The notes beneath the pieces were generated by a model. The model did no database searches. It was not told the DNA's origin and saw nothing but the letters and a program-made list of their open reading frames with translations. A DNA stretch of 64,000 nucleotides from an uncultured Myxococcales bacterium (GTDB lineage Bacteria; Myxococcota_A; UBA9042; CAIXZC01): assembly GCA_903895725.1 (NCBI GenBank), contig CAITUV010000030.1, forward strand, positions 8,603 through 72,602, given 5' to 3'. A program made the position numbers and the translations under genes. Shown in pieces: positions 17,979 through 37,188 of the stretch. How positions within the stretch are numbered: position 1 is the stretch's first letter; every line of letters starts with the position of its first letter.

Positions 17979-18055
17979 CCCACCTCCCGAAACTCTTTGC
18001 GGCCTGAGGCGTACAGCGCTATCCTCTTTCTTGCCTCACTGGCTGGGAGGTCGCC

Positions 18056-18649: not shown

Positions 18650-18688
18650 TGCTCGCCTCGGCCGGGGCTCGCACGCCTGATGAGCTTT

Positions 18689-20113: not shown

Positions 20114-20265
20114 CTCCCCTCCCGTGAGGGCGCATCATAGAACGCATCGCTCCACGTGTCCATCCCGGCTCGACACGCCGATGCATGGCGGGCAGGCGTG
20201 ACGCAGCCTCGCCAGGATGGTACACTGCCGCACGGCTGTGCATCTGCTGACCGAGAGGGAGCGAC

Positions 20266-22917: not shown

Positions 22918-22961
22918 CAGCGGTACCTTTGCTGCCTGCTGCAGTGCTGCTGCCGACTGCC

Positions 22962-25133
22962 TCAGCTTCCGAGTTCGGAGGGCTTCATCGAAAGGCCGAT
23001 GCGTCCCCGCATCCGGTCCACCTCGACCACTTTGACGGTGACGGTCATGCCGGGGCGGCAGACCTCGAACGGCGACGAAACACGGCGGTCGGCCATGCGG
23101 GAAACGTGGACCAGCCCGTCCCGGTGAACCCCGATGTCCACGAACGCTCCAAAGTCGGTCACGCTGTTGACGCGACCGGGCAGCACCATCCCTTCCTGGA
23201 GGTCTTCCAGCGAATGCACCCGGTCGGAGAAGCGGAATTCTTTTCGTTCTCCACGGGGGTCTCTACCGGGCCGCTCCAACTCCGACAGGATGTCGGCCCA
23301 GGTCTCTGCACCGACCCCGAGAGAGTCGGCCCGCAAGTCGTTTCTCATCCGGGCAACCAGAGACTGGCTGCCTACCAATTCAGCCGTTGCCAGTCCCAGC
23401 AACCTCGCCGCCCGTCCGACTGCTTCGTAGCGCTCCGGGTGGATTCCGGTGCAATCGAGCGCCTCCGGTCCATTCGGGATCCGGAGGAAGCCGGCACACT
23501 GGAGAAAACGGGCCGGACCGATGCCCGGGACCTTGAGCAGCGCCGCCCGGCGCTGAAACGGCCCGTTGGAATCCCGGTGAGCCACGATGGCCCGCGCCGT
23601 TGCCGGACCGATGCCCGCGACGTGAGCCAGCAGGGCCGGCGAAGCGGTGTTGAGCTCGACTCCCACCCGGTTGACACACTCCTCGACGACAGCGGACAGG
23701 CCACTCTCGAGCAGCGTCTGGTCCACGTCGTGCTGGTACTGCCCCACTCCAATCGACTTGGGCTCGATCTTCACCAGCTCGGCAAGCGGATCCTGGTATC
23801 TGCGGGCAATCGAGACCGCCCCCCGCAAGGTCACGTCGAGATCGGGAAGCTCGGCCACGGCCGCTTCCGAGGCCGAGTACACCGAGGCTCCAGCCTCGCG
23901 CACCGCAGTCACCTGCACGGCGAAAGGCCATGGCACGGTCGCCAGGAAGGCCAGTGTCTCCCGGTGCGCGGTCCCGTCCCCCACCCCGGCCACGTCGAAC
24001 CGGTGGCGGCGCACCAGCTCCACCAGAGACCGTCGTGCCTCCTCCGCCCGCTCCTGCGGGGGATGGGGGTACACGACTCCGGTCCCCAGCACCCGGCCGG
24101 TATCGTCCACCACGGCCAGCTTGCAGCCGTTCCGGAATCCCGGGTCCACTCCGAGCACGCGGTGCCCACGTGCGGGAGGCTCCATCAGCAGGGAGCGAAG
24201 GTTCTCCTCGAACACGGTGACCGAGGAGCGGTCCGCTCGCTCCTTGAGCTGGCCAAGCACCTCCCGCTCCACCGAGGGCCAGAGGAGCCGTTCGAACCCG
24301 TCGGCCACCGCAGCTTCGAAGTCCTGCGAGAAGAGCTGGGGCACCTTGCGGAAGAACGGGGAGGCCATGAGGGCCTGAGCCCGCCGCTCCGGGACTTCGA
24401 CCTTGACCGACAGCGCCCCCGCCGTCTCCCCTCGCAGCATGGCCAGGATCCGGTGTGCCGGGATGTCGGCCACACGCTCGCTGCGGTCGAAATAGTCCTC
24501 GAACTGCGCCGCATCCTCTCCGGCCCCCCGCTTGCGAGAGCTTGCGATCTTCCCGGTCGACCCCGCCAGATCCCGAACCGCCCGCCGCGAGGTCGGTTCC
24601 GTCGACAGCACTTCCGCGACGATGTCCCGCGCACCCGCCAGCGCCGCATCCGGCGAGCCCACTTCCGGCCCTTCCCCCGACGGGGAGCGGATGAACCCGG
24701 CGGCGATCGCCAGGCGGGTACCGGAGGGGCATGGCGACAGCCCCAGGATGATCCGGGCCAGCGGCTCGAGCCCCGCCTTGCGAGCCACATCGGCCCTCGT
24801 GCTCTTGCGTTGCTTGAACGGAAGATAGAGATCCTCCAGCTGCTGCCGGTCTTGGCAGGATTCGATCTGCTGCCGGAGCTCGTCGGTCAGCTTGCCCGCC
24901 TTCTCGATGGCCGCCAGCACCGTCTTCTTGCGCTCATCGAGCGACGTGACGTACTCCCACGCCTCCTGGACCTTCCGGATGGCCGTCTCATCCAGCCCTC
25001 CGGTCTGCTCCTTTCGATAGCGGGCGATGAACGGAACGGTGTTCCCCTCGGACAGCAGCCGTATGCACCCGTCCACCCCCCGGTCCGGCAGCCCGCAGCG
25101 CCCGGCCACCCGGGATTCCAACGTCCTGGTCAT
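22962..25133 (-). CDS. tex: Tex-like transcription accessory protein (S1 RNA-binding domain protein)
   Basis: Start trimmed to MTRTLESRVAG (cat 25131-25133); the upstream 102 codons are Arg-rich read-through. FIARYRKEQTGGLDE (Tex N-terminal HTH), YqgF/RuvC-like region, HhH, and C-terminal S1 domain (GMVLPGRVNSVTDFGAFVDIG). Overlaps upstream gene by ATGA. Confidence 0.85.
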   Translation of the reverse strand: MTRTLESRVAGRCGLPDRGVDGCIRLLSEGNTVPFIARYRKEQTGGLDETAIRKVQEAWEYVTSLDERKKTVLAAIEKAGKLTDELRQQIESCQDRQQLEDLYLPFKQRKSTRADVARKAGLEPLARIILGLSPCPSGTRLAIAAGFIRSPSGEGPEVGSPDAALAGARDIVAEVLSTEPTSRRAVRDLAGSTGKIASSRKRGAGEDAAQFEDYFDRSERVADIPAHRILAMLRGETAGALSVKVEVPERRAQALMASPFFRKVPQLFSQDFEAAVADGFERLLWPSVEREVLGQLKERADRSSVTVFEENLRSLLMEPPARGHRVLGVDPGFRNGCKLAVVDDTGRVLGTGVVYPHPPQERAEEARRSLVELVRRHRFDVAGVGDGTAHRETLAFLATVPWPFAVQVTAVREAGASVYSASEAAVAELPDLDVTLRGAVSIARRYQDPLAELVKIEPKSIGVGQYQHDVDQTLLESGLSAVVEECVNRVGVELNTASPALLAHVAGIGPATARAIVAHRDSNGPFQRRAALLKVPGIGPARFLQCAGFLRIPNGPEALDCTGIHPERYEAVGRAARLLGLATAELVGSQSLVARMRNDLRADSLGVGAETWADILSELERPGRDPRGERKEFRFSDRVHSLEDLQEGMVLPGRVNSVTDFGAFVDIGVHRDGLVHVSRMADRRVSSPFEVCRPGMTVTVKVVEVDRMRGRIGLSMKPSELGS

Positions 25134-27271
25134 GAGCTTCTCCTTGCACCGCCGGTCTCTTTCTTGAGGCCCTTCCTCGAGCCAACGAATCCCAGGAAGA
25201 GCAGGGAACTGAGCAGCCATGCGGCCCCGCACCCGGGCGAGGGAGGCTTCCCCCCGGCCGCACATCCTCCCGAGCTTCTCGGCCCGGACCACGCGGCGTC
25301 CTCTCCCTCGCCGTCCTGCAGATCTGCCTGTCCAGTGTCCTGCTGCCCGGAAGCGTCGGGCTTCGGCGGCAGCTCGCCGGCCACGTCGGCGATCGTCTCG
25401 CCAAGGGCCTCCTCGAAGGGCTCCCCGCGCACCTCCCATTCGCTTTCCGGTTGCGGCTCGACGAGCGGCTCGGGCCCCGGCTCCGGCTCGGGGTCAGGCT
25501 CGGGCAGCTTGACGAGCTGGAGCTCCACCCAGTTTTCGTGCAGAGGCTCTGTCTGGATCGTCACCGGCTCGGACGGCTCGTAACCGTCCGCCACCGCAGT
25601 CACCGTGAACTCGGCCGGGGCTCCCATGTCGATGATGGCGATACCGTTGGCACCCGTCTGTCCGCTCGAGCTGCCGAACGGGCCTTCCGGCTGACCCGGT
25701 ACCGGGTCCACGTAGACCACTGCCCCCTGGAGGCCCACCCCGTCCGGAGACTCCCTCACCTTGGCGAAGATCGGGGCCGGGTGGTCGGTCGGATCCGCCA
25801 GCGGGAGCGAGGGAGGCCAATGCCCGTAAGTCCCGAAGTTGTTCCGGTAGATCGGGCGGTAGAAGTCCTCCTGCTCGATGAACCAGAGCCGATCCCACGA
25901 TGTGGTGAGCCACGGCTGCTTCTCCGCATCCAGGTACATCTCCAGGTAGAACCCCGTGACACCCCACGGGTCTGCCTCGAACTGCACCGTGAGCTGCGTC
26001 CTCGGAATCGTGATGTACTGCGTGGGATCGATTGACACGTCTACGCTTGCCTTGCCAAGCACCGGGTCCGTCCCGGTGTAGAATCCGGGCTGGTCCCCGC
26101 GCACGATGCCGGTTACCTTTCCCTTCAGCGGCAGAGCCGAGAAGAACGTGACCACTACCTGGAGCTTCTGGTCTTCCAGAACCTGGGCTACCTCCGAAAT
26201 CGGGTTCCCGCCCGCATCCTGCCAGGTCACCTCGTCCACGGTCAGCCCGGGCGTGACGTGGTAGTAGTCGGGCAGGTAGCTCATCACCGACTGGATGTTG
26301 CCGCAGATCACGGCGTTGCCGTCGTACGAAGGCCAGCCGGCCGACCCGGGCTTTGCCGCCAGGAGAGCCTTGGTGAACGCCACGCCGGTGGGAAAGATGT
26401 CGTCATATAGAGACCAGAAATCCTTGTCGACGAGCACGCTCTTCTTGAGCCGCTCTACCTCGCTGTCGAACTCGTCGGATTTCTCGACCTCGCCGGAGAG
26501 CATCGACGTGAATCCTCCGCTCATTGCGAGTCCGATGAGGTCCTCCATGGGCGAGGCCAGCATCATCGCGACGAACTCCAATGCCTCCTCACGCGTCATG
26601 GCCCCGAGCAACGGTTCTGCCTTGGCCAGCTTCGCCTCGAGATCCGCCTGCACCATGGCGCAGTCCGTCGGTTTTCCGAGGAAGTCGGAGCCGGTCGCAC
26701 AGTACCAGGCCAGGACATCCGATGCCCTCGCCTTGGCCGCCTCGTCCTCGAACCAGAAGTCATAGAGCACATCGACCATGGTGAGCCAGTCTCCCACCAC
26801 CAGGTCGCCCAGGCTCTCGACGATCCCCTCGCTGTCTCCTCGCCCGTCCGAGTACTCGCCGAACAGGCTGAAGATGCCGATGGCAGCGGACGAGAAGAAC
26901 GGGGCCACGTCGAGCGAGTGCATGGCGGCATCGGAGCCCTGGTGACACAGATGGCCCAGGGCGAACAGCTTATACTCGGGAGCCGTATCGAGAGCCACGT
27001 CGAGCAGGTGATAGCTCAGCTCCCGGCTGTGCCCGAACGTGAGGGCCTCGCTCGCCAGGTCGAAGTCGGGGGAGAGCGCACCAAACAGAACGTAGGATTT
27101 CGCCAGCGGCAACTTGGCCAGGGCTTCCCACTCCGGATCCGTGGCCACTAGATCGGTCAGCACGGCCTGGCACTCCCGGAGGTGGACTCCGGGGCCGGCG
27201 GCCCAAGCCATTGCGCACGGAAACACTGCCATGGTTGCCAGCAACAGGAGCCCCAGACCGCTGCGAGCCAT
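25130..27271 (-). CDS. secreted protein with MYXO-CTERM-like tail; N-terminal region resembles Zn-dependent phospholipase C / S1-P1 nuclease fold (tentative)
   Basis: Start trimmed to MARSGLGLLLLATMAVFPCAMA|WAAGPGVH (SPase I site; cat 27269-27271). Mature N-terminal Trp followed by a His-rich spacing (H..HxxD, GHLCHQGSDAAMHS) is reminiscent of Zn-PLC/P1 nuclease ligands. C-terminus SGGCAAGGKPPSPGCGAAWLLSSLLFLGFVGSRKGLKK is MYXO-CTERM-like. PEPDPEPEPGPEP linker. Confidence 0.55.
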   Translation of the reverse strand: MARSGLGLLLLATMAVFPCAMAWAAGPGVHLRECQAVLTDLVATDPEWEALAKLPLAKSYVLFGALSPDFDLASEALTFGHSRELSYHLLDVALDTAPEYKLFALGHLCHQGSDAAMHSLDVAPFFSSAAIGIFSLFGEYSDGRGDSEGIVESLGDLVVGDWLTMVDVLYDFWFEDEAAKARASDVLAWYCATGSDFLGKPTDCAMVQADLEAKLAKAEPLLGAMTREEALEFVAMMLASPMEDLIGLAMSGGFTSMLSGEVEKSDEFDSEVERLKKSVLVDKDFWSLYDDIFPTGVAFTKALLAAKPGSAGWPSYDGNAVICGNIQSVMSYLPDYYHVTPGLTVDEVTWQDAGGNPISEVAQVLEDQKLQVVVTFFSALPLKGKVTGIVRGDQPGFYTGTDPVLGKASVDVSIDPTQYITIPRTQLTVQFEADPWGVTGFYLEMYLDAEKQPWLTTSWDRLWFIEQEDFYRPIYRNNFGTYGHWPPSLPLADPTDHPAPIFAKVRESPDGVGLQGAVVYVDPVPGQPEGPFGSSSGQTGANGIAIIDMGAPAEFTVTAVADGYEPSEPVTIQTEPLHENWVELQLVKLPEPDPEPEPGPEPLVEPQPESEWEVRGEPFEEALGETIADVAGELPPKPDASGQQDTGQADLQDGEGEDAAWSGPRSSGGCAAGGKPPSPGCGAAWLLSSLLFLGFVGSRKGLKKETGGARRSS

Positions 27272-27545
27272 GTTCTCCCTCCCAGGCTGCACGCACACGG
27301 CCACTTCGCCGGCGGGACGAAGCGCCCCCGTGCGCCGAGCCTCCATGATGCGCCACTGCAAGAACGGATTCAATGCGTTCCGCTAGTCTGCAGGATCCCC
27401 GGCCGGACTCGAAGGTGCCCCCTTGGGTCCCTCTCGGGGGGCACAGTTATCTGCGGAGGAGAGCCATCTTGACGCGGAAGTATGTGATGGTCATAATGCG
27501 CCCATCGCTGATGCTGTACCCACATGAACGTGAAGGGAGGGGAGG

Positions 27546-30500
27546 ATGACTGGGCGAGGATTGTGTGCTTTTGTCGGGGCAGCGCTTCTGGGAGTGATTC
27601 TGGCGTCCTGTTCAGGGGGAGGGACGGTCACAATCGGAGATGGAGACGTGGCGGGGGAATCCCGCCAGGTCACCTGCGAAGAGGGGGAGGTGGACTGCGG
27701 CGGAATCTGCGTCGACCTGGACTCTGACGGGCAGCACTGCGGGAAGTGCGGCAACGCCTGTCCTGTCGGTCAGGGATGCCAGGACGGTGAGTGCGTGACG
27801 GTCTGCCCCGAAGGCCAGGACGTTTGTTCCGGGAAGTGCGTGGATCTGGCGGCGGATCCCGCCAACTGTGGAGAGTGCGGAAAGGCCTGTGACGTGGGGC
27901 TGGCCTGTGCCGAAGGGGAGTGCGTGGTCTCCTGTCCACCGGGCACTGCGGACTGTGAAGGGGCGTGTGTGAACCTGCTGGCGGATGCAGCCCATTGCGG
28001 CAAGTGCGGGGATGCATGCCAGGAAGGGCAGGTCTGTACCAACGGGCAGTGTGCGCTGACCTGTCAGCAGGGACTCGTCGACTGCAATGGGTTCTGCGTG
28101 AATCTCCAGACCGATCTGGCCAACTGCGGCGAGTGCGGCAAGCCATGCGAAGAAGGCGAGGTGTGTTCTGCCGGCACTTGTGCGCTGAGCTGTCAGGAAG
28201 GGCTGGTCGAGTGTGACGGCCTGTGCGTGAACCTGCTCTCTGACAATGCCCACTGCGGCGAGTGCGGCAAGGTGTGCCCGGCCGGCCAGCTCTGTTCCAA
28301 CGGCCAGTGCGAGGTGAGCTGCCTCCAGGGACTGTCCGAGTGCGACGGGCTGTGCGTGAACCTCATGACGGATCTGGGCAACTGCGGCGAGTGCGGCAAG
28401 GAGTGCGAAGCGGGCCAGGTCTGTTCGGCCGGCGAGTGCGCCCTGTCGTGCCAGGAGGGGCTTGAGAACTGTGACGGGCTCTGTGTGAACCTGTTGTCCG
28501 ACAATGCCAACTGCGGCGAATGCGGCAAGGTGTGCCCGGCCGGCCAGCTCTGTTCCAACGGCCAGTGTGAGGTGAGCTGCCTCCAGGGATTGTCCGAGTG
28601 CGACGGGCTATGCGTGAACCTCATGACGGACCTGGGCAACTGCGGCGAGTGCGGCAAGGGGTGCGAGGCGGGCCAGGTCTGCTCGGCCGGCACGTGCGCC
28701 CTGTCGTGCCAGGAAGGGCTCGAAAACTGTGACGGGCTGTGCGTGAATCTGCTGTCCGACAACGCCAACTGCGGCGAATGCGGGAAGGCGTGCCAGGCCG
28801 GCCAGATCTGCTCCAACGGGACCTGCCAGCTGTGGTGCCAGCAGGGGCTCAAGGAGTGCGCCGGCGTGTGCGTGAACCTGCTGACCGACACGGCCAACTG
28901 CGGGGAATGCGGAGTCGCGTGCGAGGCCGGCCAGGTGTGCTCGAACGGTGACTGTGCGCTGTCGTGCCAGGAGGGGCTTGAGAACTGTGACGGGCTGTGC
29001 GTGAACCTGTTGACCGACAACGCCAACTGCGGCGACTGCGGGACTTCGTGCCTGGCCGGTTGGGTCTGCTCGAACGGTGACTGCGCCCTCTCCTGCCAGC
29101 AGGGGCTTGCCGACTGCAACGGTCTTTGTGTGAACCTCCTGTCCAACAACCTCAACTGTGGGGAGTGCGGCCAGGCCTGCGAGGAAGGAACCAAGTGCTC
29201 AGGAGGGGTCTGTCTGCTGACCTGCCAGGAGGGGCTCGACGAGTGTCAGGGGCTGTGCGTGAACCTGCTGGCCGACAACGCCAACTGCGGTGAGTGCGGG
29301 CTGGGCTGCCCCGCCGGTCAGATCTGCTCCAACGGTCTTTGCCAGCTCTCCTGCCAGCAGGGGCTGAGCGAGTGCAACGGGGTTTGCGTCAACCTCAAGA
29401 CCGACGTGAAGAACTGTGGCAAGTGCCAGAATGCGTGCCTTGCCGGTCAGGTCTGCTCGGACGGCGGCTGCTCGCTGACCTGCCAGGAGGGGCTTGCCGA
29501 TTGCGGCGGCCTGTGCGTGAACCTGGCGACCGACAATGCCAACTGCGGGGAGTGCGGGACGGTTTGTGCTCCCGGCCAGGTCTGCTCGGGTGGCAAGTGC
29601 GGCCTGTCGTGCCAGGAGGGGCTTGCCGACTGTGACGGCCTGTGCGTGAATCTGCTCACCGACAACGCCAACTGCGGCCAGTGCGGCACCCTGTGCGGTG
29701 CCGGTGAGCTTTGCATCGGGGGCAAGTGCGAAGTCACCTGCCAGCCCGGCAACGAGATTTGCGACGGAACTTGCGTGAACCTGCTCACCGACAATGCCAA
29801 CTGCGGCCAGTGCGGGCTCGTCTGCGATCCGGGCATGCTCTGCTCCAACGGCTTCTGCCTCCTGTCCTGCCAGCAGGGGCTGACCGACTGCGGCGGAATC
29901 TGCGTGAACCTTCTGAGCGACAACGACAGCTGCGGCGAGTGCGGGAAGTTGTGCGCAGCGGGCCAGGTCTGCTCGGCCGGCAAGTGCCAGCTGTCGTGCC
30001 AGCAGGGGCTCAGCGACTGCGGCGGCCTGTGCGTGAATCTGCAGGTCGACAACGGCAACTGCGGTGACTGCGGTGTCGTGTGCGCGCCCGGGACCGTGTG
30101 TCTGAAGGGCAAGTGCGAGATAGCGTGCCTCGAGGGGCTCACCCTGTGCGGCAGCATCTGCGCCAATCTGATGGTCGACAACACCAACTGTGGCGGCTGC
30201 GGGAAGCCCTGCGAGTCCGGTACTCAGTGCGTCGACGGCAAGTGCGAGATCTCCTGCCTCCAGGGGCTTACCAACTGCGACGGCGTCTGCGTGAACCTGC
30301 TGTCCGATAATGCCAACTGCGGGCAGTGCGGAACGACTTGCGATGCGGGAAAGATCTGCTCCAACGGCAGTTGCCAGCTCAGCTGCCAGCAGGGGCTGTC
30401 CGTGTGCGACGGAATCTGCGTGAACCTGCTGTCGGACAACGCCAATTGCGGGAAGTGCGGCACGAAGTGCGTTGCGGGTACCATCTGCTCCGGGGGGTCC

Positions 30501-31886
30501 TGCTCCCTGACTTGCCAGGGAGGCCTCTCGAATTGCAGTGGCGTCTGCGTGAACCTGACCAACGACAATGCCAACTGCGGCCAATGCGGCAAGGCCTGTG
30601 ATGCCGGCAACGTGTGCTCCAACTCGTCGTGCCAGGTGAGCTGCCAGGCCGGCCTTTCCGAATGCGGGGGCGTGTGTGTGAACCTGCAGACCGACCTCTC
30701 CAACTGCGGCCAGTGCGGCAAGGCCTGTGATGCCGGCAACGTGTGCTCCAACGGTTCGTGCCAGGTGAGCTGCCTGGCCGGCTTGTCCCTGTGCAACGGG
30801 ACGTGCGTGAACCTGCTCTCGGACAATGCCAACTGCGGCGAGTGCGGGAAGGCCTGTGCGGCGGGCAATCTCTGCTCGAACGGTTCATGCCAGGTGAGCT
30901 GTCAAGCCGGCCTCACCTTGTGCAACGGAACCTGCGTCAACCTGCAGTCCGACAACGCCAATTGCGGCGGGTGCGGGAAGGCCTGTGCGGCCGGCAACGT
31001 GTGCTCCAGCGGCACCTGCCAGGTGACCTGCCAGGCCGGTCTGACCGTCTGCGGCGGAACCTGCGTCAACACGCAGAGCGACAACGCGCACTGCGGCGGA
31101 TGCAGCAAGCCGTGCCCCGCCGGCTCCATCTGTACGAACGGGGCCTGTGCGGTCAATTGCCAGGTCGGGCTGACCAACTGCTCGGGAACCTGCACGAACC
31201 TGACCTACGACCCGAACAACTGTGGCTCGTGCGGCGCTGCGTGCAACGCCGGCTACGCGTGCTTCAACAGCAAGTGCCTCAAGCTCGGTGCCATCAAGGT
31301 TGCCGTCATGGGCGGGAGCTGGTACACGGATGACACCCGCACCTACCTGGCATCGCAGCCGATGATCGAGTCGGCGGCGTCCCTGAACAGTTGTGCGCTG
31401 GCCAGCCTCCAGCAGTATGATGTCGTCGTGCTGTACGGCAACATGAGCTGCTTCGACGGGGCGGCATTCACGTCCTACATCCAGGGGGGCGGAGGCATCG
31501 TGGCAACCCCGTGGATCCACAACAACAACAGCGGGTTTGCAGGACTGCCGGTCAGCTACGGTGGGGGCTCCAACGCCGTGTACTCGACCGCACTCAACGT
31601 GAACGTGACCAACGCGGCCGATACGCTGTTGTCCGGAGTCTCCTTCACCGGCGGCTCGGTGGGGTACGAAGATGCCTCGTTCACGCTGAAGGCGGGGGCA
31701 ACCAACTCGGTGATCTGGAACAACAACAACACGCGGCTGGCCGTCGCCAAATGGGAGTACGGTTCAGGGCGTTCCGTGTACCTCGACTTCCACTACATCA
31801 CATCCGACTGCGGCCGTGCGATTTCCTACGACTGGGGCAAGAAGCTCCTGTACAACTCCGTCCTGTGGGCCGGCAAGCGGCTGTAG
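27546..31886 (+). CDS. giant tandem cysteine-rich repeat lipoprotein (~30 x 40-aa 6-Cys modules) with C-terminal ~210-aa globular domain
   Basis: MTGRGLCAFVGAALLGVILASCSGGG lipobox. Modules of form C-x2-G-L-x-x-C-x-G-x-C-V-N-L-x-x-D-x-x-N-C-G-x-C-G-x-x-C-x-x-G-x-x-C-S-x-G-x-C-x-x-S repeated from residue ~45 to ~1225. DNA-level near-identical 240-bp duplicate (28224..28464 vs 28465..28705). C-terminal domain LGAIKVAVMGGSWYTDD...DVVVLYGN... unassigned. Confidence 0.75.
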   Translation: MTGRGLCAFVGAALLGVILASCSGGGTVTIGDGDVAGESRQVTCEEGEVDCGGICVDLDSDGQHCGKCGNACPVGQGCQDGECVTVCPEGQDVCSGKCVDLAADPANCGECGKACDVGLACAEGECVVSCPPGTADCEGACVNLLADAAHCGKCGDACQEGQVCTNGQCALTCQQGLVDCNGFCVNLQTDLANCGECGKPCEEGEVCSAGTCALSCQEGLVECDGLCVNLLSDNAHCGECGKVCPAGQLCSNGQCEVSCLQGLSECDGLCVNLMTDLGNCGECGKECEAGQVCSAGECALSCQEGLENCDGLCVNLLSDNANCGECGKVCPAGQLCSNGQCEVSCLQGLSECDGLCVNLMTDLGNCGECGKGCEAGQVCSAGTCALSCQEGLENCDGLCVNLLSDNANCGECGKACQAGQICSNGTCQLWCQQGLKECAGVCVNLLTDTANCGECGVACEAGQVCSNGDCALSCQEGLENCDGLCVNLLTDNANCGDCGTSCLAGWVCSNGDCALSCQQGLADCNGLCVNLLSNNLNCGECGQACEEGTKCSGGVCLLTCQEGLDECQGLCVNLLADNANCGECGLGCPAGQICSNGLCQLSCQQGLSECNGVCVNLKTDVKNCGKCQNACLAGQVCSDGGCSLTCQEGLADCGGLCVNLATDNANCGECGTVCAPGQVCSGGKCGLSCQEGLADCDGLCVNLLTDNANCGQCGTLCGAGELCIGGKCEVTCQPGNEICDGTCVNLLTDNANCGQCGLVCDPGMLCSNGFCLLSCQQGLTDCGGICVNLLSDNDSCGECGKLCAAGQVCSAGKCQLSCQQGLSDCGGLCVNLQVDNGNCGDCGVVCAPGTVCLKGKCEIACLEGLTLCGSICANLMVDNTNCGGCGKPCESGTQCVDGKCEISCLQGLTNCDGVCVNLLSDNANCGQCGTTCDAGKICSNGSCQLSCQQGLSVCDGICVNLLSDNANCGKCGTKCVAGTICSGGSCSLTCQGGLSNCSGVCVNLTNDNANCGQCGKACDAGNVCSNSSCQVSCQAGLSECGGVCVNLQTDLSNCGQCGKACDAGNVCSNGSCQVSCLAGLSLCNGTCVNLLSDNANCGECGKACAAGNLCSNGSCQVSCQAGLTLCNGTCVNLQSDNANCGGCGKACAAGNVCSSGTCQVTCQAGLTVCGGTCVNTQSDNAHCGGCSKPCPAGSICTNGACAVNCQVGLTNCSGTCTNLTYDPNNCGSCGAACNAGYACFNSKCLKLGAIKVAVMGGSWYTDDTRTYLASQPMIESAASLNSCALASLQQYDVVVLYGNMSCFDGAAFTSYIQGGGGIVATPWIHNNNSGFAGLPVSYGGGSNAVYSTALNVNVTNAADTLLSGVSFTGGSVGYEDASFTLKAGATNSVIWNNNNTRLAVAKWEYGSGRSVYLDFHYITSDCGRAISYDWGKKLLYNSVLWAGKRL

Positions 31887-31902
31887 TGGCTTGAGCGGCC
31901 TG

Positions 31903-31924
31903 GCGGAGGGCCGGGCTTCGCCTC
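31903..31924. terminator. possible bidirectional terminator hairpin between convergent genes
   Basis: GGCGGA-gggccgggc-TTCGCC (6-bp stem with one G-T pair, 9-nt loop) in the 36-bp gap between the repeat-lipoprotein gene (+) and lipase gene (-). Weak. Confidence 0.25.
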
Positions 31925-33374
31925 ACTTCCCCAGAGTATCGACGATCCAATCCTGAGCGAAAGAGCTGGCCACCAGGTCCCAATGATTGAGCAGGGCGAA
32001 ATGCTTTGTCTCAGCCAGGCCGGGAAGCATGGCGGCATCCTCCGCACTCTTGCGGAAGACGACTCCGTCTGACGGACCGGTCGCTTCCCAGGTGACCCCG
32101 TTGATGATCGGGTTTCCTCCGGAGGCAACATGGACGGCAACGGAGGCCGGGACGTCGTGAGTCCTCAGGTCGCCCAGGAAGCCCCCGCCCAGCTCGATCG
32201 CTGCCGCAATGCCGAGCGAGTGGCTCACGAACCCCTGGCCACCGTAATAGGTGGTGTACCAGTCCTGCTCGAACATCGAAAGGGCATATTCCTCGTCCCA
32301 GGCCGCCTGGAGCTGGAGCAGCCCGTCGAACGCACCGCCGTAGATGCTGTCGGCGTAGGTGTCCTTCCAGACGCCCCACTCGAGCACCTTGTCCCACGAG
32401 GAGGGCATCGAGAGCTGGAAATATTCGGCCGGGAAGTTGAACGCCGGATGTCGGAAAGAGAAATCCGTTCCCCCGAGCGGGACGCCGAGGAGCACCAGGC
32501 GGTCAATGTCATCCTGATAGGTGAGACCGACCTCCCCGGCGAATCCGGAGGCCAGCGTCACCGCAACCATTCCTCCCTTGGAATGGGCGACCACGCTCAG
32601 CTTCGAAAGACCGGACAGAAGACGAGCCTGCTCCAGGGCGGCTGCGAGCTCGATTGCCTGGTTGAAGTTGTTCCCGAAGGGGTGGGGGAACGTGATTGCG
32701 AGCACGCAATGGCCCGCCTTGGTGAGTGCCTGGTAGAGCCCGGTCCCGATCAGGGCCGGCTCCACGAAGCTCTGCATCGCGTTGCTGCCTGCGCCGTGGA
32801 CCAGCATGACGGCATCCGTCGGGCCCTCCAGCTTGCCGCATCCGGTTCCGACGTGCAGCACGAAGCGGTCCGGGCCTGGCTTGGTCTGGCCGCCGAACAG
32901 GGTGGCAATGTCGGGATCCTTCTGCGTCGTCTGGTCGACGGACTTCTCGGCCAGCAGCCCGGGATGGGCGACGCTGTACAGCCGGCAGGAGGCAAATGGG
33001 GCACATGCATTCTCGGCCACGAGCTCGGTGGCGAATACTGTAGGCGGATCTGTTGCGTCGACCCCCTCGACGTCAAAATCGGCATCGGCATCACAATCGG
33101 CATCGGCATCGTAATCGCCATCGGCATCGGCATCACAATCGGCATCGCCATCGCCATCGTAATCGCCATCCCCATCGTAATCGCCATCGGCACCGTCGTC
33201 GTATTCGGAATCGCTGTCAGCGCCGTAGTCGTACTGGTAGTCCCCCCCTTCAACCTCATGCCCCGAGTCTGTCCCGACGTACTTCACCGGCCCCGAGCCG
33301 CTGCACGACAGCACAAGCCCGGCAACCGCGGTCATCAGCCAAAGAACCACCGTCACGAGCCGGTCCCCGCTCAT
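31923..33374 (-). CDS. lipoprotein alpha/beta-hydrolase (secreted lipase/esterase-like) with poly-(Asp-Gly/Ala-Asp) acidic linker
   Basis: Start trimmed to MSGDRLVTVVLWLMTAVAGLVLSCSGSG (cat 33372-33374). Acidic low-complexity DGDYDGDGDYDGDGDADCDADADGDYDADADCDADADFD encoded by GATGCC/GATTGC repeats. Hydrolase core with VVAHSKGGM (GxSxG) nucleophile elbow. Confidence 0.7.
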   Translation of the reverse strand: MSGDRLVTVVLWLMTAVAGLVLSCSGSGPVKYVGTDSGHEVEGGDYQYDYGADSDSEYDDGADGDYDGDGDYDGDGDADCDADADGDYDADADCDADADFDVEGVDATDPPTVFATELVAENACAPFASCRLYSVAHPGLLAEKSVDQTTQKDPDIATLFGGQTKPGPDRFVLHVGTGCGKLEGPTDAVMLVHGAGSNAMQSFVEPALIGTGLYQALTKAGHCVLAITFPHPFGNNFNQAIELAAALEQARLLSGLSKLSVVAHSKGGMVAVTLASGFAGEVGLTYQDDIDRLVLLGVPLGGTDFSFRHPAFNFPAEYFQLSMPSSWDKVLEWGVWKDTYADSIYGGAFDGLLQLQAAWDEEYALSMFEQDWYTTYYGGQGFVSHSLGIAAAIELGGGFLGDLRTHDVPASVAVHVASGGNPIINGVTWEATGPSDGVVFRKSAEDAAMLPGLAETKHFALLNHWDLVASSFAQDWIVDTLGK

Positions 33375-34462
33375 TCCCGCCCCCCATGCTGTCCGTCGTC
33401 CGTTTCGGCGAGCCACGCCGTGATGCGATTCCACACCTTGCTGAACGATCCTTCCCCGACCGAAAGGCCGATATGGCCAACGGGAAATACCTGGTTCTCG
33501 AAGCGGCGGCTTCCCGTGAACACTTTTTCGGCTGCAAGAGAGCAGGCGGGCGGGATGATGTGGTCCGATTTTGCGATCACATTGAGCACCGGACACGTGA
33601 TCCGGGTGAAATCGAGCGTTTGCCCGCCTGCTGCAAGCCCACCCCGCATCACCCGGTTCTCACGGTACCAGTGCTGCACGTACTCCCGGAACGCCTCGCC
33701 TGCCACCGGGACCGGATCGTTGACCCACTTGGAGATGGCCAGGTAGCTGCGCAGGAACTCCTGGCTCCAACCGTACTTCCAGAGCGAGTAGCTGTTGCGG
33801 GCCTGCCAGCTCGGCTTGAGCATGGTGAATGCCATGTTGAGGACATCGGGCGAGACCAGGCCGCTCGAGCTGACGAAGGCATCCAGATTGAACGCCGAGC
33901 TCTTGGCCCACAGACGGAGCAGCCCCGCCTCATCGAAGTCGATGGGGGTGGCCAGCAGCACCAGCGATGCCACTTTCTCGGGGTGGAGGGCCGCGTACAT
34001 CATGGCCAGGCTTCCACCCATGCAGTAGCCGGCCAGGACCGGGGCGGCCTTATCCCTTGCCAGGATCCGGTCGACAGCCAGCCCCAGACGCCCATCCGCA
34101 TAGTCCGAGAGCGACGTGTTCCGGTCCCCTGTGCCCGGGATTCCCCAGTCCAGCAGGTACACGCAGAACCCTGCCCCCTGCAGATACCTCACCACGCTGC
34201 GGTCGGGCAGAAGGTCGAGCACGTAGGCCCGGTTCACGAGCGACGGGACGAAGAGCACCGGATGACTGTGCTTTCGAGCCGACTCATCCGAGTAGCGCAG
34301 AAGCCGGCTTCCCGCCACGTCGAGGACGACCTCGTGCGGCGTGGTGCCGGTTTCCGGTGCCCGGATTGCCCCGGTCGCGAGCTTCACCCCATTGGACAGA
34401 CGTCCTGCAACGGCCTTGAGCTCCACCCGAGCTGCCTGGAGTGCGTCCCGCACTTTCTTCAT
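33371..34462 (-). CDS. phaC: poly(R)-hydroxyalkanoate synthase, class III/IV catalytic subunit PhaC
   Basis: Start trimmed to MKKVRDALQAARVELK (cat 34460-34462), 364 aa. Lipase-box G-Y-C-M-G-G (LAGYCMGGSLAMMYAAL) with catalytic Cys; FVPSLVNRAYVLDL; size typical of class III/IV PhaC. Overlaps the upstream phaE-like gene by ATGA. Confidence 0.8.
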   Translation of the reverse strand: MKKVRDALQAARVELKAVAGRLSNGVKLATGAIRAPETGTTPHEVVLDVAGSRLLRYSDESARKHSHPVLFVPSLVNRAYVLDLLPDRSVVRYLQGAGFCVYLLDWGIPGTGDRNTSLSDYADGRLGLAVDRILARDKAAPVLAGYCMGGSLAMMYAALHPEKVASLVLLATPIDFDEAGLLRLWAKSSAFNLDAFVSSSGLVSPDVLNMAFTMLKPSWQARNSYSLWKYGWSQEFLRSYLAISKWVNDPVPVAGEAFREYVQHWYRENRVMRGGLAAGGQTLDFTRITCPVLNVIAKSDHIIPPACSLAAEKVFTGSRRFENQVFPVGHIGLSVGEGSFSKVWNRITAWLAETDDGQHGGRE

Positions 34463-34872
34463 GCGCCCTTCCTGCTCTTTCGAGTCCCCGAAGCGGACTT
34501 GGACGGTCCGGCCACCGGGGCCGGTGCCTCGGCGGTTGCCGAAGCCTCTGCCAGCCGGCTCAGCGCGGACAGAGCCTCGGTCATGGCCGCAAGACCGTCC
34601 TGGAGAAGGTCCATGCGCGTCACGAGCTTCTGCTGTTCCACCTCGATGCGGCGGATGGCGGAGAGGGCATCTTCCATGTCCTTGCGCGTGGGGAGCTGGA
34701 CGCTCTCCAACGCCTTGATGATGGAACGGTCGACGACCATCCGGAACAGGTTGCTCCCTTCCATCAGCTTTCCCATCTGCGTCAGGAACGCCTGGTTGCG
34801 GACGAGCTGGTCCATGAAGGTCGAAAATCCTTTTTCCCACTGCTTGAAAATCATGTCGCTGAAATCCACCAT
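34459..34872 (-). CDS. PHA synthase second subunit (PhaE/PhaR-type, class III/IV)
   Basis: 137 aa; ...LESVQLPTRKDMEDALSAIRRIEVEQQKLVTRMDLL... matches the conserved (V)NxPTR(E/K)D(I/M)...core of the PhaE/PhaR (synthase subunit) family. Translationally coupled to phaC. Confidence 0.6.
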   Translation of the reverse strand: MVDFSDMIFKQWEKGFSTFMDQLVRNQAFLTQMGKLMEGSNLFRMVVDRSIIKALESVQLPTRKDMEDALSAIRRIEVEQQKLVTRMDLLQDGLAAMTEALSALSRLAEASATAEAPAPVAGPSKSASGTRKSRKGA

Positions 34873-34881
34873 GGCATCCTC

Positions 34882-36411
34882 CTAGTGCGGTTCTGTGCGG
34901 GTGAGCTCTTCAGCGAGCTGCCGCTTCAGGATCTTGCCTGCAGCGCTGACCGGCAGGGCGTCACGAACGATCACCTGGCGAGGCATCTTGAACCGGGCCA
35001 GGCGGGGTCCGAGGTAATCGAGCAGCGCCTCAGGAGCCGGCTTCCGACCAGGGGCCGGCGTCACGAAGGCCACCGGCACCTCCCCCCACTTGTCATCCTT
35101 GATTCCGACTACGGCGGCCATTCCCACGTCGGGGTGGTTGGTCAGTAGCTGCTCGATCTCGGCCGGATACACGTTCTCGCCGCCCGAGATGATCATTTCC
35201 TTCTTCCGGCCCGCGATGGTCAGGAACCCGTCTTCATCGAAATGGCCGAGGTCGCCGGTCCTGAGCCACCCGTCCACGATGGTCCGTGCGGTTTCTTCCG
35301 GCAGGTTCCAGTATCCGAGCATGATGTTGGGCCCCTTGCACACGACCTCGCCGGTCTGGCCGGGCGGGAGAATCTGCCCGTTTTCGTCGATGACTTCGAC
35401 CTCGGTGTACAGGCAGCGCTTGCCGACGGTACCGGGCTTGCGCCGGCAATCTCCCGGTCCCATCCCGGTAACCCCCGGCGAGGCCTCGGTCAGCCCATAC
35501 CCCTGCCGCATCTCGAAGCCCCGGGAATGGTAGGTCTCCAGGAGAGACAGCGGCAGCGGTGCCCCGCCGGAGAGCAGGACCGACAGCGACGACAGATCCC
35601 GCTTCTCGAAGTCCGGATGGTCAAGCAGCATCTGGTAGACCGTCGGGACTGCCATGATCCCGACGACCTTCCACCGTTCGACCCGCTCCAGCACGTCGGC
35701 CGGATCGAACTTCGGAATCAGGATCGTCGTGGCTCCAATGTGGATCATCGGGGTCACCGAGCCATTGAGCCCCCCCACGTGGAAGAGCGGCAGGACCACC
35801 AGCGTCACCGCATCGGGCGAGTTCCCGAACGCCCAGCCGTTCACCGTCTGGAAGAAGCAGTTGTGGTGCGAGAGCATCACTCCCTTGGCCCGGCCCGTGG
35901 TCCCCGCCGTGTACATGATGAGCAGCAGGTCGTCCCCGCCCGCCTTCTCGTCGAGGGCCTCGGCATCGGCTGCGCTGGCGAGCAGTGCATCGTACTCGCC
36001 GGAGCCGGCCAGCGGGGTGGATACCCGCCGCTGCAGGGCGCCCACGGCTGAGCCCAGCTCATCGGCCTGCTTCGCGAACACGGGATCATGGAACAACACC
36101 CGTGGCGAGCAATCCTCGAGGATGAACTGGAGCTCCGGCACGGACAGGCGGAAGTTGAGTGGGACGAACACCATGCCCCTCTTGGCGCAGGCAAAAAGGA
36201 GCTCGATGTACTCGATGCTGTTCAGCATCAGGGCAGCGACCCGATCCCCGGCCACAAGCCCCATCGCGGACAGGGCATTGGCCAGCCGGTTGACCCGCTG
36301 GTCCATCTCCCGGTAGGTCACGGCCCGCCCCGCACAGATCAGGGCTTTCTTCTCCGGGTACAACCGAGCGTTCTTGGAAATCCAGAATCCGATGTTGATC
36401 CGCATCCCCAT
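34882..36411 (-). CDS. AMP-dependent acyl-CoA synthetase/ligase (fatty-acid--CoA ligase-like)
   Basis: Start trimmed to MGMRINIGFW (cat 36409-36411). AMP-binding motif LLLIMYTAGTTGRAKGVMLSHHN, YGLTEASP, GWLRTGDLG, C-terminal PVSAAGKILK. Confidence 0.8.
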   Translation of the reverse strand: MGMRINIGFWISKNARLYPEKKALICAGRAVTYREMDQRVNRLANALSAMGLVAGDRVAALMLNSIEYIELLFACAKRGMVFVPLNFRLSVPELQFILEDCSPRVLFHDPVFAKQADELGSAVGALQRRVSTPLAGSGEYDALLASAADAEALDEKAGGDDLLLIMYTAGTTGRAKGVMLSHHNCFFQTVNGWAFGNSPDAVTLVVLPLFHVGGLNGSVTPMIHIGATTILIPKFDPADVLERVERWKVVGIMAVPTVYQMLLDHPDFEKRDLSSLSVLLSGGAPLPLSLLETYHSRGFEMRQGYGLTEASPGVTGMGPGDCRRKPGTVGKRCLYTEVEVIDENGQILPPGQTGEVVCKGPNIMLGYWNLPEETARTIVDGWLRTGDLGHFDEDGFLTIAGRKKEMIISGGENVYPAEIEQLLTNHPDVGMAAVVGIKDDKWGEVPVAFVTPAPGRKPAPEALLDYLGPRLARFKMPRQVIVRDALPVSAAGKILKRQLAEELTRTEPH

Positions 36412-36480
36412 GTCTCCCTCCCGCCTGCCCTGTGTACCCCGCCCTTCCCGACTTGTCCACCCCTGCCTGTGCCCCCGTCT

Positions 36481-36624
36481 GCTGCGCATCCAAAGGGCCC
36501 CTCCCGCGTGGTCGGGGCTGCGTTTGCCCGTGCCCGTGGCCTGACCGTTCCCTGCCCGTGGCCGCTGCGCATCCAAAGGGCCCCTCCCGCGTGGTCGGGG
36601 CTGTGTTGGCCCGTGCCCGTGGCC
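36481..36624. repeat. two copies of a 61-bp direct repeat (GCTGCGCATCCAAAGGGCCCCTCCCGCGTGGTCGGGGCTG(C/T)GTT(T/G)GCCCGTGCCCGTGGCC) separated by 22 bp, in the phasin-3'/acyl-CoA-synthetase-5' intergenic region
   Basis: Read directly: copy 1 at 36481-36541, copy 2 at 36564-36624, 2-3 mismatches. Not coding in a credible frame (an antisense ORF-track entry only). Confidence 0.8.
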
Positions 36625-36628
36625 GCTG

Positions 36629-37027
36629 CTACTTGCACTTCGGTTCCATGCTCCGAAGCTTGCCGGCCAGGTCCATGGCGGCCTTGGCAGCCTGCTGGAA
36701 GCTGTGGCTCCCCTGCTCGAGCGCCTTGACGTAGTTGTCCATCAGCATGGTCATGCCCTTGCGGTTCATCCCGTGCATCTTGTGGGCCACGTCGATGGGC
36801 ATCTGCACGGCCTTGGCGGCCTCGGGGTGTCCTTCGAAGCCCTTGTGCAGCGCGTCCTCGATGGGCTGGAAGGCCTTCTCCATCTGGTCGAACCCGTTGT
36901 CCATGAGGGTCCGGGCCTGCTCGACCCCTTCCTTGTGCATCTGCACAACGGCGCCGAATCCCTTCTCCATGTTCTTGACCATCTCCACCGTCCAATCGCC
37001 CATGTTCGCTACGAATTCCTTCTCCAT
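36629..37027 (-). CDS. phasin-family PHA granule-associated protein
   Basis: 132 aa, alpha-helical, Lys/Glu/Ala/Met-rich (MEKEFVANMGDWTVEMVKNMEKGF...); divergent from phaR, as in classical phaP-phaR arrangements. Confidence 0.7.
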   Translation of the reverse strand: MEKEFVANMGDWTVEMVKNMEKGFGAVVQMHKEGVEQARTLMDNGFDQMEKAFQPIEDALHKGFEGHPEAAKAVQMPIDVAHKMHGMNRKGMTMLMDNYVKALEQGSHSFQQAAKAAMDLAGKLRSMEPKCK

Positions 37028-37069
37028 GACAACCTCCCGTATGCTCGCCGCCGCTCCGTGCGGTGGGGA

Positions 37070-37084
37070 TGCTGCAATGCAGCA
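37070..37084. promoter_or_regulatory. putative operator: palindrome TGCTGCA-A-TGCAGCA in the phasin/phaR divergent promoter (TGC-rich, PhaR-site-like)
   Basis: Perfect 7-bp arms around one central base. A second palindromic element T6-GTTGCAAC-GC-A8 lies at 37126-37148. PhaR repressors are known to bind TGC-rich repeats in phaP/phaR intergenic DNA (established knowledge); assignment here is inference. Confidence 0.4.
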
Positions 37085-37188
37085 ATCGCCCTCAATATAG
37101 GCGCGGTCCGGTGGCTGTCAACCTCTTTTTTGTTGCAACGCAAAAAAAACTCCGCTACGGTTCAGCCAGTCAGCGTTGGAGGGCAGCC

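What the first reader, a model, noticed from the sequence alone, without database searches (positions are those of the whole stretch)
27546..31886. 1446-aa lipoprotein made of ~30 tandem 40-aa six-cysteine modules, with a recent 240-bp tandem duplication
The protein is almost entirely a C-x2-G-L-x2-C-x-G-x-C-V-N-L-x2-D-x2-N-C-G-x-C-G-x2-C-x2-G-x2-C-S-x-G-x-C module repeated head-to-tail. At DNA level 28224..28464 and 28465..28705 are ~95% identical, so the array is actively expanding or contracting by recombination or slippage. Copy number is likely variable between strains and may be mis-assembled from short reads. The C-terminal 210-aa domain (DVVVLYGN..., Asn-rich) is unassigned. Function is unknown; it could be adhesive or matrix-related, or metal-binding given the CxxC pairs.
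Basis: seen in the sequence. Interest (0 to 1): 0.55.

Follow-up and report, generated by a model that had tools for sequence, protein, structure and literature searches.

The report
Long cysteine-repeat stalk lipoprotein, ThuA-like tip
This is a real but fairly ordinary gene from an uncultured myxobacteria-like bacterium: a lipid-anchored envelope protein with 28 copies of a known cysteine-rich repeat (Stig1 / MXAN_6577-like), probably a stiff stalk, and a small ThuA-like domain at its far end.

Summary
The 1446-aa ORF at 27546..31886 (+) is real and starts with a lipoprotein signal (lipobox LASC, Cys22). The module is 43 aa (129 nt) with 8 invariant Cys, not 40 aa with six. There are exactly 28 copies with no indel (aa 44-1247).

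The duplication is a two-module, 258-nt unit (28191-28448 vs 28449-28706), not 240 nt. It is 90.7% identical, not ~95%, with 15 synonymous and 5 non-synonymous codon changes.

Most modules are close to synonymous saturation, and the longest exact repeat is 47 nt. The array is therefore old, and mis-assembly looks unlikely.

The repeat belongs to known families: Pfam Stig1 (E=3e-166) and NCBIfam "MXAN_6577-like cysteine-rich protein" (1315 bits). More than 855 related proteins exist, mostly in Myxococcota, fused to many different globular domains.

The "unassigned" C-terminal 199 aa has a ThuA-like (class I glutamine-amidotransferase-like) fold. It belongs to a small family that no Pfam or NCBIfam model reached its cut-off for. 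That family is always extracytoplasmic: it sits on lipoproteins with 4-28 Stig1 modules or other spacers, or carries a PEP-CTERM tag.

Best reading: an anchored stalk presenting the ThuA-like tip. It is a new member of a known kind.

The parts
27469..27497 (+). Promoter-like site TTGACG-17-CATAAT upstream of the gene
   Evidence: Consensus scan, 10 of 12 matches. This is a pattern match only.
27532..27545 (+). Purine-rich ribosome-binding stretch GAAGGGAGGGGAGG directly before the ATG
   Evidence: Read from the sequence.
27546..31886 (+). CDS of the 1446-aa lipoprotein (stop codon included)
   Evidence: ORF list. GC3 is 85% against 65% overall. The same gene was called in public assemblies.
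27546..27611 (+). Lipoprotein signal peptide (aa 1-21) plus lipobox Cys22 (L-A-S-C); residue +2 is Ser
   Evidence: Sequence inspection. No dedicated signal-peptide predictor was available.
27612..27674 (+). Gly/Asp-rich 21-aa tether (SGGGTVTIGDGDVAGESRQVT) between the lipid anchor and module 1
   Evidence: Translation.
27675..31286 (+). Array of 28 x 43-aa (129-nt) Stig1 / MXAN_6577-like modules with 8 invariant Cys each and no indels
   Evidence: Pfam PF04885 E=3e-166 in 28 stretches. NCBIfam NF041328 1315 bits. AF2 model of four modules: pLDDT 91, two beta-hairpins per module.
28191..28448 (+). Modules 5-6, first copy of the youngest two-module (258-nt) duplication
   Evidence: 90.7% nt and 94% aa identity to 28449-28706.
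28449..28706 (+). Modules 7-8, second copy of the 258-nt duplication
   Evidence: The longest exact shared run is 47 nt (28263 / 28521).
31287..31883 (+). C-terminal 199-aa globular domain with a ThuA-like (class I glutamine-amidotransferase-like) fold

Best explanation
The gene encodes a lipid-anchored envelope protein, most likely exposed on the cell surface, of an uncultured Myxococcota-like bacterium. It has three functional parts.

(i) Anchor. An N-terminal lipoprotein signal is cleaved at Cys22, which is then acylated. A 21-aa flexible Gly-rich tether follows.

(ii) Stalk. Twenty-eight identical-length 43-aa Stig1 / MXAN_6577-type modules follow, each with 8 invariant Cys. After export these presumably form about 4 disulfides per module and give a stiff, protease-resistant rod. 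If each module spans about 2.5-3 nm, as in TNFR or EGF-type modules, the rod would be about 70-85 nm long. That length is my estimate, not a measurement.

(iii) Tip. A C-terminal ThuA-like domain is the functional head. The stalk is a generic spacer that sets how far the head sits from the membrane.

The head probably binds or acts on a carbohydrate or matrix component rather than acting as an amidotransferase, because no Cys-His-Glu triad is conserved.

What is shown: the ORF, the lipobox, the repeat anatomy, repeat family membership, the fold of the head, and the recurrence of the anchor-spacer-head architecture.

What is inferred: disulfide formation, rigidity and length of the stalk, surface exposure, and the ligand or activity of the head.
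For: Anatomy.

The repeat is a curated, widespread extracytoplasmic module:
- Pfam Stig1 scores 540.8 bits against a cut-off of 24.1.
- NCBIfam NF041328 scores 1315 bits against a cut-off of 100.
- More than 855 relatives exist, mostly in Myxococcota MAGs. Their arrays are fused to unrelated globular domains (FG-GAP, SBBP and SMP-30 propellers, FGE-sulfatase, GH8, RCC1, choice-of-anchor L, collagen and others). This is the behaviour of a spacer or scaffold module.
- The AF2 model of four modules has pLDDT 91 with pTM 0.48, as expected for an elongated chain of small beta-hairpin units.

Length and Cys constraint:
- All 224 array Cys are invariant and there is no indel, although synonymous divergence is close to saturation (0.406 observed vs 0.452 expected).

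The head:
- Sub-threshold Pfam hits all fall on ThuA, LBP_M, Glyco_hydro_42M and DUF7408. I recall these as one Pfam clan, but that was not checked here.

The head family is consistently extracytoplasmic and usually terminal:
- Lipobox + 4, 5, 9 or 11 Stig1 modules + head (P0014, P0008/L007, P0007, L006).
- Lipobox + Gly/Ser linker or CBM96 + head (P0011, P0023, P0012).
- Other Cys-rich or MopE-like spacers + head (L001, L004, L009-L011).
- About 240-aa signal peptide + head + PEP-CTERM tag (P0047 and P0054 pass the TIGR02595 / NF035944 cut-offs).

Precedent: the cysteine-rich repeats of Myxococcus TraA were proposed to act as a rigid stalk presenting a distal PA14 domain (PMC3325183).
Against: - Nothing here shows experimentally that the protein reaches the cell surface. 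A lipoprotein with Ser at +2 could face the periplasm.
- The head model is only moderately confident (pLDDT 65; residues 85-130 are below 50).
- The link to ThuA is at fold level only: 17% identity, Pfam ThuA 14.2 bits against a cut-off of 33.4, and no significant PDB sequence hit.
- No ThuB-like partner or carbohydrate-utilisation genes are adjacent.
- Plant STIG1 domains are themselves ligands, so the repeats could be more than a passive spacer.
Confidence: 0.6

Rival explanations
1. The repeats themselves are the working part. The array would be a multivalent adhesin, matrix protein or ligand, by analogy with plant STIG1, which binds receptor ectodomains. The C-terminal domain would be accessory, for example an oligomerisation module like the GATase1-like domain of GH42 enzymes.
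For: The modules belong to the Stig1 family. The variable 'x' positions between the invariant Cys and Gly differ among modules. Many family members consist only of Stig1 repeats with no recognisable second domain. The GH42M trimerisation domain is one of the weak hits for relatives of the head.
Against: The same head occurs with unrelated spacers, with short linkers, or directly on a PEP-CTERM tag. The same repeat precedes dozens of unrelated domains. Both facts point to the repeat as the interchangeable part. In the youngest duplicate, changes are mostly synonymous (15 synonymous to 5 non-synonymous), so there is no sign of diversifying selection.
Confidence: 0.2
2. It is a periplasmic protein, anchored to the inner leaflet of the outer membrane or to the inner membrane. 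It would act as an envelope scaffold or spacer rather than a surface protein.
For: A lipobox alone does not imply surface exposure. No surface-export signal was identified.
Against: If the array is a rod of about 70-85 nm (my estimate), it is longer than a typical Gram-negative periplasm of about 25-30 nm (general knowledge). Members of the head family with PEP-CTERM tags are exosortase substrates, which are destined for the cell surface.
Confidence: 0.12
3. It is a metal-binding or redox-buffering protein that uses the CxxC pairs.
For: Each module contains a C-G-x-C-G-x-x-C motif.
Against: The protein is exported through a lipoprotein signal. Each module has an even number (8) of strictly invariant Cys. 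The model is a beta-hairpin, disulfide-type fold at pLDDT 91. It belongs to a family of secreted disulfide-rich proteins (Stig1). No His, Asp or Glu is conserved alongside the Cys.
Confidence: 0.05
4. It is an assembly artefact, or a hypervariable contingency locus whose copy number in this window is not real.
For: Repeats with a 129-nt period can collapse in short-read assemblies. Several relatives of the head domain lie on very short contigs that start inside or just after an array.
Against: The longest exact internal repeat is 47 nt, and only 37 positions begin a 30-mer that occurs earlier in the CDS. Mean module identity is about 69%, and even the youngest duplicate is only 90.7% identical. 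The reading frame is intact across 4.3 kb and all 28 modules are in perfect register. The identical protein is on at least 6 contigs, and the one contig shown is recorded in 2 samples.
Confidence: 0.03

Closest known systems
Pfam PF04885 Stig1 (plant stigma-specific STIG1-like cysteine-rich domain)
   Same: The same cysteine spacing and conserved motif (…C-x-G-x-C-V-[DN]-L-x2-D-x2-N-C-G-x-C-G-x2-C…). The window protein matches the model 28 times, 540.8 bits in total. Both are secreted.
   Different: As I recall, plant STIG1 proteins are small secreted proteins with one domain of about 85 aa (the Pfam model length), and they act as ligands. Here 28 modules of 43 aa form a 1204-aa array on a bacterial lipoprotein with a globular tip. 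No bacterial member has been studied, as far as the literature searches show.
NCBIfam NF041328 'MXAN_6577-like cysteine-rich protein' (Myxococcota)
   Same: A direct hit far above the cut-off (1315 bits against 100). The closest public proteins carry this name, e.g. P0128 and P0196 from Polyangiales MAGs.
   Different: At 28 modules the array is at the top of the range among the 127 proteins counted (only P0128, with 29, has more). It is unusual in having all 27 spacings identical, where others have 0-17 regular spacings. Its C-terminal ThuA-like domain is rare among them.
Myxococcus xanthus TraA (PA14 head, Cys-rich TIGR04201 repeat stalk, MYXO-CTERM anchor)
   Same: The same design logic: a membrane anchor, a cysteine-rich tandem-repeat 'rigid stalk' and a distal globular head (PMC3325183).
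   Different: The repeat family differs (no TIGR04201 hit at E<=0.1). The topology is reversed: here the anchor is N-terminal and the head C-terminal. The head is ThuA-like rather than PA14. There is no MYXO-CTERM tag and no adjacent traB-like gene.
ThuA-like proteins (Pfam PF06283; PDB 1t0b, 4jqs, 4e5v), class I glutamine-amidotransferase-like fold
   Different: Sequence identity is only 16-17% and the Pfam score is below the cut-off (14.2 against 33.4). The domain is exported and sits at the end of a stalk. No ThuB partner is present. ThuAB is described as a dehydrogenase that forms 3-keto-disaccharides (PMC8121099).
Small PEP-CTERM (exosortase-sorted) proteins carrying the same head domain (e.g. 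P0047, P0054)
   Same: They are homologous to the window's C-terminal domain (profile E down to 1e-17) and share the '…G-x-G-R-x-V-Y-L-[ND]-x-H-x-I-T-S-D…' motif. They are also displayed outside the cytoplasm.
   Different: They are anchored by a C-terminal PEP-CTERM tag with no stalk, and they come from other bacterial groups.

Membership tests
Pfam PF04885 Stig1 | Whole-protein HMM score above the gathering cut-off (24.1 bits) | tested here: met
   540.8 bits, E=3e-166, 28 matched stretches.
NCBIfam NF041328 MXAN_6577-like cysteine-rich protein | HMM score above the curated cut-off (100 bits) | tested here: met
   1315.2 bits, 15 stretches.
Bacterial lipoprotein | An n-region with positive charge, a hydrophobic h-region, and a lipobox [LVI][ASTVI][GAS]C within about the first 35 residues | tested here: met
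   MTGRG-LCAFVGAALLGVI-LAS-C22. This is a pattern check only. Lipid modification itself cannot be tested with these tools.
TraA-type Cys-rich repeat (TIGR04201) / MYXO-CTERM (TIGR03901) proteins | A hit to the TIGR04201 repeat model and a C-terminal MYXO-CTERM tag | tested here: not met
   The NCBIfam scan at E<=0.1 lists neither model. The protein ends …NSVLWAGKRL with no C-terminal hydrophobic helix.
ThuA (Pfam PF06283) | HMM score above the gathering cut-off (33.4 bits) | tested here: not met
   14.2 bits, E=0.054. Relatives score 17-18 bits.
ThuA-like / class I glutamine-amidotransferase-like fold | Structural superposition on solved ThuA-like proteins | tested here: met
Catalytic class I glutamine amidotransferase | A conserved Cys-His-Glu triad with a nucleophile-elbow Cys | tested here: not met
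   Among 112 aligned domain stretches from the family, the columns conserved at 70% or more are Gly, hydrophobic residues, Tyr, Asp, Arg, Ser and Asn. No conserved Cys or His was found.
PEP-CTERM / exosortase substrate | A C-terminal PEP motif, a TM helix and a basic tail | tested here: not met
   Absent from the window protein. Present in the distant head-domain relatives P0047 and P0054.
Slippage-prone contingency repeat | Near-identical tandem units that allow frequent gain or loss | tested here: not met
   Mean module DNA identity is about 69%. The best pair is 94% identical. The longest exact repeat is 47 nt. Synonymous divergence is close to saturation.

The most novel reading that the evidence does not exclude
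The C-terminal 199-aa domain founds an undescribed family of surface-displayed ThuA-like domains. The family has 124 representatives among 1.84 billion cluster representatives, and no Pfam or NCBIfam model reaches its cut-off. Bacteria would present this domain at tunable distances from the membrane: directly on a PEP-CTERM anchor, on short linkers, or on cysteine-rich stalks of 4 to 28 modules. In this reading stalk length acts as a molecular ruler. For example, it could let the domain reach through an exopolysaccharide or S-layer to bind or modify a glycan on prey, kin or matrix. The 28-module, perfectly regular stalk here would be the extreme case.
Probability: 0.25. Interest if true: 0.5.

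Novelty: new member of a known kind. Interest (0 to 1): 0.3.

Why it matters
The finding has modest importance.

- It shows that a striking repeat protein is a member of an abundant but functionally unstudied repeat family in Myxococcota (Stig1 / MXAN_6577-like).
- It removes the worries about assembly error and active slippage.
- The architecture comparison suggests the repeat is an interchangeable stalk, and that the real unknown is the small ThuA-like tip domain.
- That tip family is rare, always extracytoplasmic, and lacks any curated model. It is a defined target for structural and binding studies.
- The perfectly regular 28 x 43-aa array would also be a convenient natural example for studying disulfide-rich rods in bacteria.

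Tried and rejected
1. I rejected them in favour of lag 258.
2. PDB sequence search with the whole protein gave no hit. A profile of the C-terminal domain against PDB gave only a meaningless E=0.46 hit.
4. The afdb50 fold library was unavailable.
5. Model coordinates are not exposed, so disulfide connectivity and the rise per module could not be measured.
6. I looked for a strain- or species-level orthologue to compare copy number and found none.
   - The nearest Tex relatives (83-84% identity) lie on contigs that end before the gene.
   - Genome and metagenome scans found no relative of the head above 65% identity.
7. The exact-sequence cluster look-up says the protein is not in that collection, although the contig index holds it.
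8. Literature searches for MXAN_6577 and for bacterial Stig1 found no functional study.
9. I suspected a MYXO-CTERM tag on the upstream neighbour from its Cys/Gly tail and hydrophobic end. NCBIfam gave no hit, so I make no such claim.
10. Rfam and tRNA scans of the window found nothing.


Full report
**1. Observation**

The ORF is real. ATG 27546 to stop 31886 on the + strand encodes 1446 aa. It is preceded by a purine-rich ribosome-binding stretch at 27532-27545 and a sigma-70-like TTGACG-17-CATAAT site at 27469-27497. GC3 is 85% against 65% overall, as expected for a true reading frame in a high-GC genome.

The N-terminus MTGRGLCAFVGAALLGVILAS|C has a basic n-region, a hydrophobic core and a lipobox L-A-S-C (Cys22, Ser at +2). 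The lipoprotein call therefore stands, as a pattern match.

The protein contains 229 Cys (15.8%). Anchoring on the CGxC motif gives 28 anchors with all 27 spacings equal to 43 residues. TRF reports period 129 nt, and the repeat finder places 25 overlapping 300-nt copies at 129-nt steps.

The module is therefore 43 aa with 8 invariant Cys, in 28 copies and with no indel (aa 44-1247, nt 27675-31286). It is not '~30 x 40 aa with six Cys'.

The consensus is C-Q-x-G-L-x2-C-x-G-x-C-V-N-L-x2-D-x2-N-C-G-x-C-G-x2-C-x2-G-x2-C-S-x-G-x-C-x-L-S.

**2. The duplication**

The module-by-module DNA identity matrix shows the closest pairs:
- modules 6 and 8: 94%
- modules 5 and 7: 88%

This is a two-module, 258-nt duplication: 28191-28448 vs 28449-28706, 90.7% identical overall.

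The two copies differ at 24 nt, in 15 synonymous and 5 non-synonymous codons.

Among codons that encode the same amino acid, the fraction that differs is:
- 12% for modules 6 vs 8
- 14% for modules 23 vs 24
- 25% for modules 5 vs 7
- 40.6% on average over all pairs, against 45.2% expected at saturation given this gene's codon usage

The array is therefore old. It has not been homogenised by gene conversion, yet it has kept every Cys and its exact module length. That indicates strong structural constraint rather than ongoing slippage.

Terminal modules (1-3, 27-28) are the most divergent at 50-60%. Modules 5-18 and 23-26 form more similar blocks. This is the usual pattern of internal expansion.

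The longest exact internal repeat is 47 nt. The identical product is recorded on at least 6 contigs of 20-200 kb, including ENA ERZ1426665. Mis-assembly is therefore unlikely.

**3. What the repeat is**

- Pfam: Stig1 (PF04885), E=3e-166, 28 stretches.
- NCBIfam: NF041328 'MXAN_6577-like cysteine-rich protein', 1315 bits against a cut-off of 100.

A search of 5.8 billion proteins returned more than 855 relatives at E<=1e-20. Those that carry a name come mostly from Myxococcota (Polyangiales, Myxococcaceae, Myxococcales, Haliangium ochraceum, 'Deltaproteobacteria' MAGs).

Their Stig1 arrays are joined to many unrelated domains: FG-GAP/VCBS, SBBP and SMP-30 propellers, FGE-sulfatase, GH8, RCC1, choice-of-anchor L, collagen, fibrinogen-C, a protein kinase and others.

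I built an HMM from the window's 28 modules and counted modules in the proteins fetched so far, of which 127 had at least one hit:
- P0128 has 29 modules.
- P0127 has 28.
- Most have 9-20.
- Only the window protein has every spacing equal to 43 aa.

AlphaFold2 on four consecutive modules, using the window's own 25 four-module frames as the alignment, gives pLDDT 91 and pTM 0.48. Each module has two short beta-hairpins, consistent with an elongated chain of small disulfide-stapled units.

I found no functional literature on bacterial members.

**4. The C-terminal domain (aa 1248-1446)**

No Pfam or NCBIfam model passes its threshold. The only hits are weak ones to ThuA and LBP_M, and there are no NCBIfam hits.

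The domain is rare:
- The word-indexed search found only 6 relatives.
- A profile search of all 1.84 billion representatives found 124, of which 34 have E<=1e-30.

An AF2 model (pLDDT 65, pTM 0.68; the N-terminal beta-alpha-beta half scores 72-92) superposes best on ThuA-like proteins:
- 147-157 residues aligned in each case

Relatives give sub-threshold hits to ThuA, Glyco_hydro_42M, LBP_M and DUF7408. I recall these as members of one Pfam clan, but that was not checked here.

Across 112 aligned domain stretches from the family, the conserved columns are mainly Gly and hydrophobic residues. The motifs are G-G-G-[IL]-[IV] and G-x-G-R-x-V-Y-L…I-T-S-D. No Cys-His-Glu triad is conserved. It is a ThuA-like fold, but not a demonstrable ThuA family member and not a catalytic amidotransferase.

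**5. Architecture comparison: the key evidence for mechanism**

The head occurs in these settings:

- (a) After a lipobox and 4, 5, 9 or 11 Stig1 modules. Examples are P0014, P0008 (which also appears within L007 7008-8600), P0007 and L006 3197-5332.
- (b) After a lipobox and a Gly/Ser linker or a CBM96 module. Examples are P0011, P0023 and P0012.
- (c) After other cysteine-rich or Asp-rich spacers. Examples are Polyangium sp. 15x6 (L001 8960-10594), a Myxococcota MAG (L004 268-2283, with MopE-like repeats) and L009-L011.
- (d) As proteins of about 240 aa with a signal peptide and a PEP-CTERM tag. P0047 and P0054 pass the TIGR02595 / NF035944 cut-offs.

Across these examples the anchor and the head are constant in kind, and the spacer is interchangeable and varies in length. 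The same Stig1 spacer also carries dozens of other heads.

This supports a design of anchor, stalk and head. [quoted passage not shown] Here the polarity is reversed and the repeat family is different.

**6. Mechanism proposed**

- After Sec export and lipidation at Cys22, the 224 array cysteines form disulfides (inferred).
- The 28 modules form a stiff rod. I estimate about 70-85 nm by analogy with TNFR or EGF modules of about 40 aa; this was not measured.
- The ThuA-like head at the tip binds or modifies a carbohydrate or matrix component. This is inferred from three points: the carbohydrate-related relatives of the fold, one CBM96-linked homologue, and PEP-CTERM homologues. As I recall, PEP-CTERM proteins are typical of exopolysaccharide-producing bacteria.
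- Surface exposure is inferred from the stalk length and from the exosortase-sorted homologues. It is not shown.

Rivals are listed with estimated probabilities in their own section: a repeat-centred adhesin or ligand, a periplasmic location, metal binding, and an artefact.

**7. Organism and context**

The window's Tex protein is 83-84% identical to proteins from 'Deltaproteobacteria bacterium' MAGs. It is only about 50% identical to Polyangiales, Myxococcales, Sandaracinaceae and Nannocystaceae proteins. The source is therefore an uncultured lineage that is probably, but not certainly, within Myxococcota.

The gene is monocistronic on the + strand, between minus-strand genes:
- Upstream is a 713-aa secreted protein with weak Zn-phospholipase-C and CarboxypepD_reg hits.
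- Downstream is a 497-aa alpha/beta-hydrolase that is also a lipoprotein, followed by a class III PHA synthase cluster.

No functional link between these genes and the target gene is evident.

**8. Verdict**

The repeat is a member of known, curated families, so the finding is a new member of a known kind.

The residual novelty lies in three things:
- the extreme and perfectly regular array;
- the rare, unmodelled ThuA-like tip domain;
- the variable stalk length seen with that tip domain.

Interest: 0.3.

Noticed in passing
window 7435..11967 (-): A second giant lipoprotein of 1510 aa (lipobox LLLSC|GGG). It is built from a different cysteine-rich repeat (Pfam Dicty_CTDC PF00526, E=7e-35; units like 'CxDxNxCTxDxC'). 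Four 'NGxETDxDCGGxC' units and a Gly-rich C-terminal region of about 450 aa follow. The same type of repeat precedes the ThuA-like head in Polyangium sp. 15x6 (L001 8960-10594)..
   Followed up: partly
window 25130..27271 (-) and 31923..33416 (-): Both flanking genes also encode exported proteins. The first is 713 aa, with weak Zn-dependent phospholipase C and CarboxypepD_reg hits and a Cys/Gly-rich tail followed by a hydrophobic and then basic C-terminus. That tail looks like a sorting tag, but no NCBIfam model hit it. The second is a 497-aa alpha/beta-hydrolase (DUF7379) with lipobox VLSC and an Asp-rich 'DYDGDGD' linker..
   Followed up: partly
window 33413..37800 (-/+): A polyhydroxyalkanoate gene cluster lies downstream. 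It holds a class III PhaC, a 137-aa PhaE-like protein (weak hit), an AMP-dependent ligase and a PHB_acc_N protein..
   Followed up: no
L006 3197..5332 (+) versus called genes 4268..5332 (+) and 3424..4302 (-): In a JGI metagenome contig the 711-aa homologue (lipobox + 11 modules + head) was annotated as a truncated 354-aa protein plus a 292-aa antisense ORF inside the array that is probably spurious. In the window too, long antisense ORFs (28193..29194, 29199..30584, 30885..31520) run through the array; they are probably by-products of high-GC repetitive coding sequence..
   Followed up: partly
L002, L003 (genome contigs): Two MAGs labelled 'uncultured Rickettsiales bacterium' encode relatives of the head domain at 40-43% identity. 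The label looks doubtful for such GC-rich, Myxococcota-like sequence.; my ORF extraction for L002 picked the wrong frame.
   Followed up: no
window 45099..48662 (-): A 1187-aa protein with DUF3160 (E=3.5e-66) and a PD40 beta-propeller repeat. It is another large protein of unknown function..
   Followed up: no
window 1..64000: No tRNA gene and no Rfam family at gathering score in the whole 64 kb. The exact 1446-aa protein is indexed by the contig look-up but is reported absent from the clustered protein collection. The two resources are therefore inconsistent.
   Followed up: no
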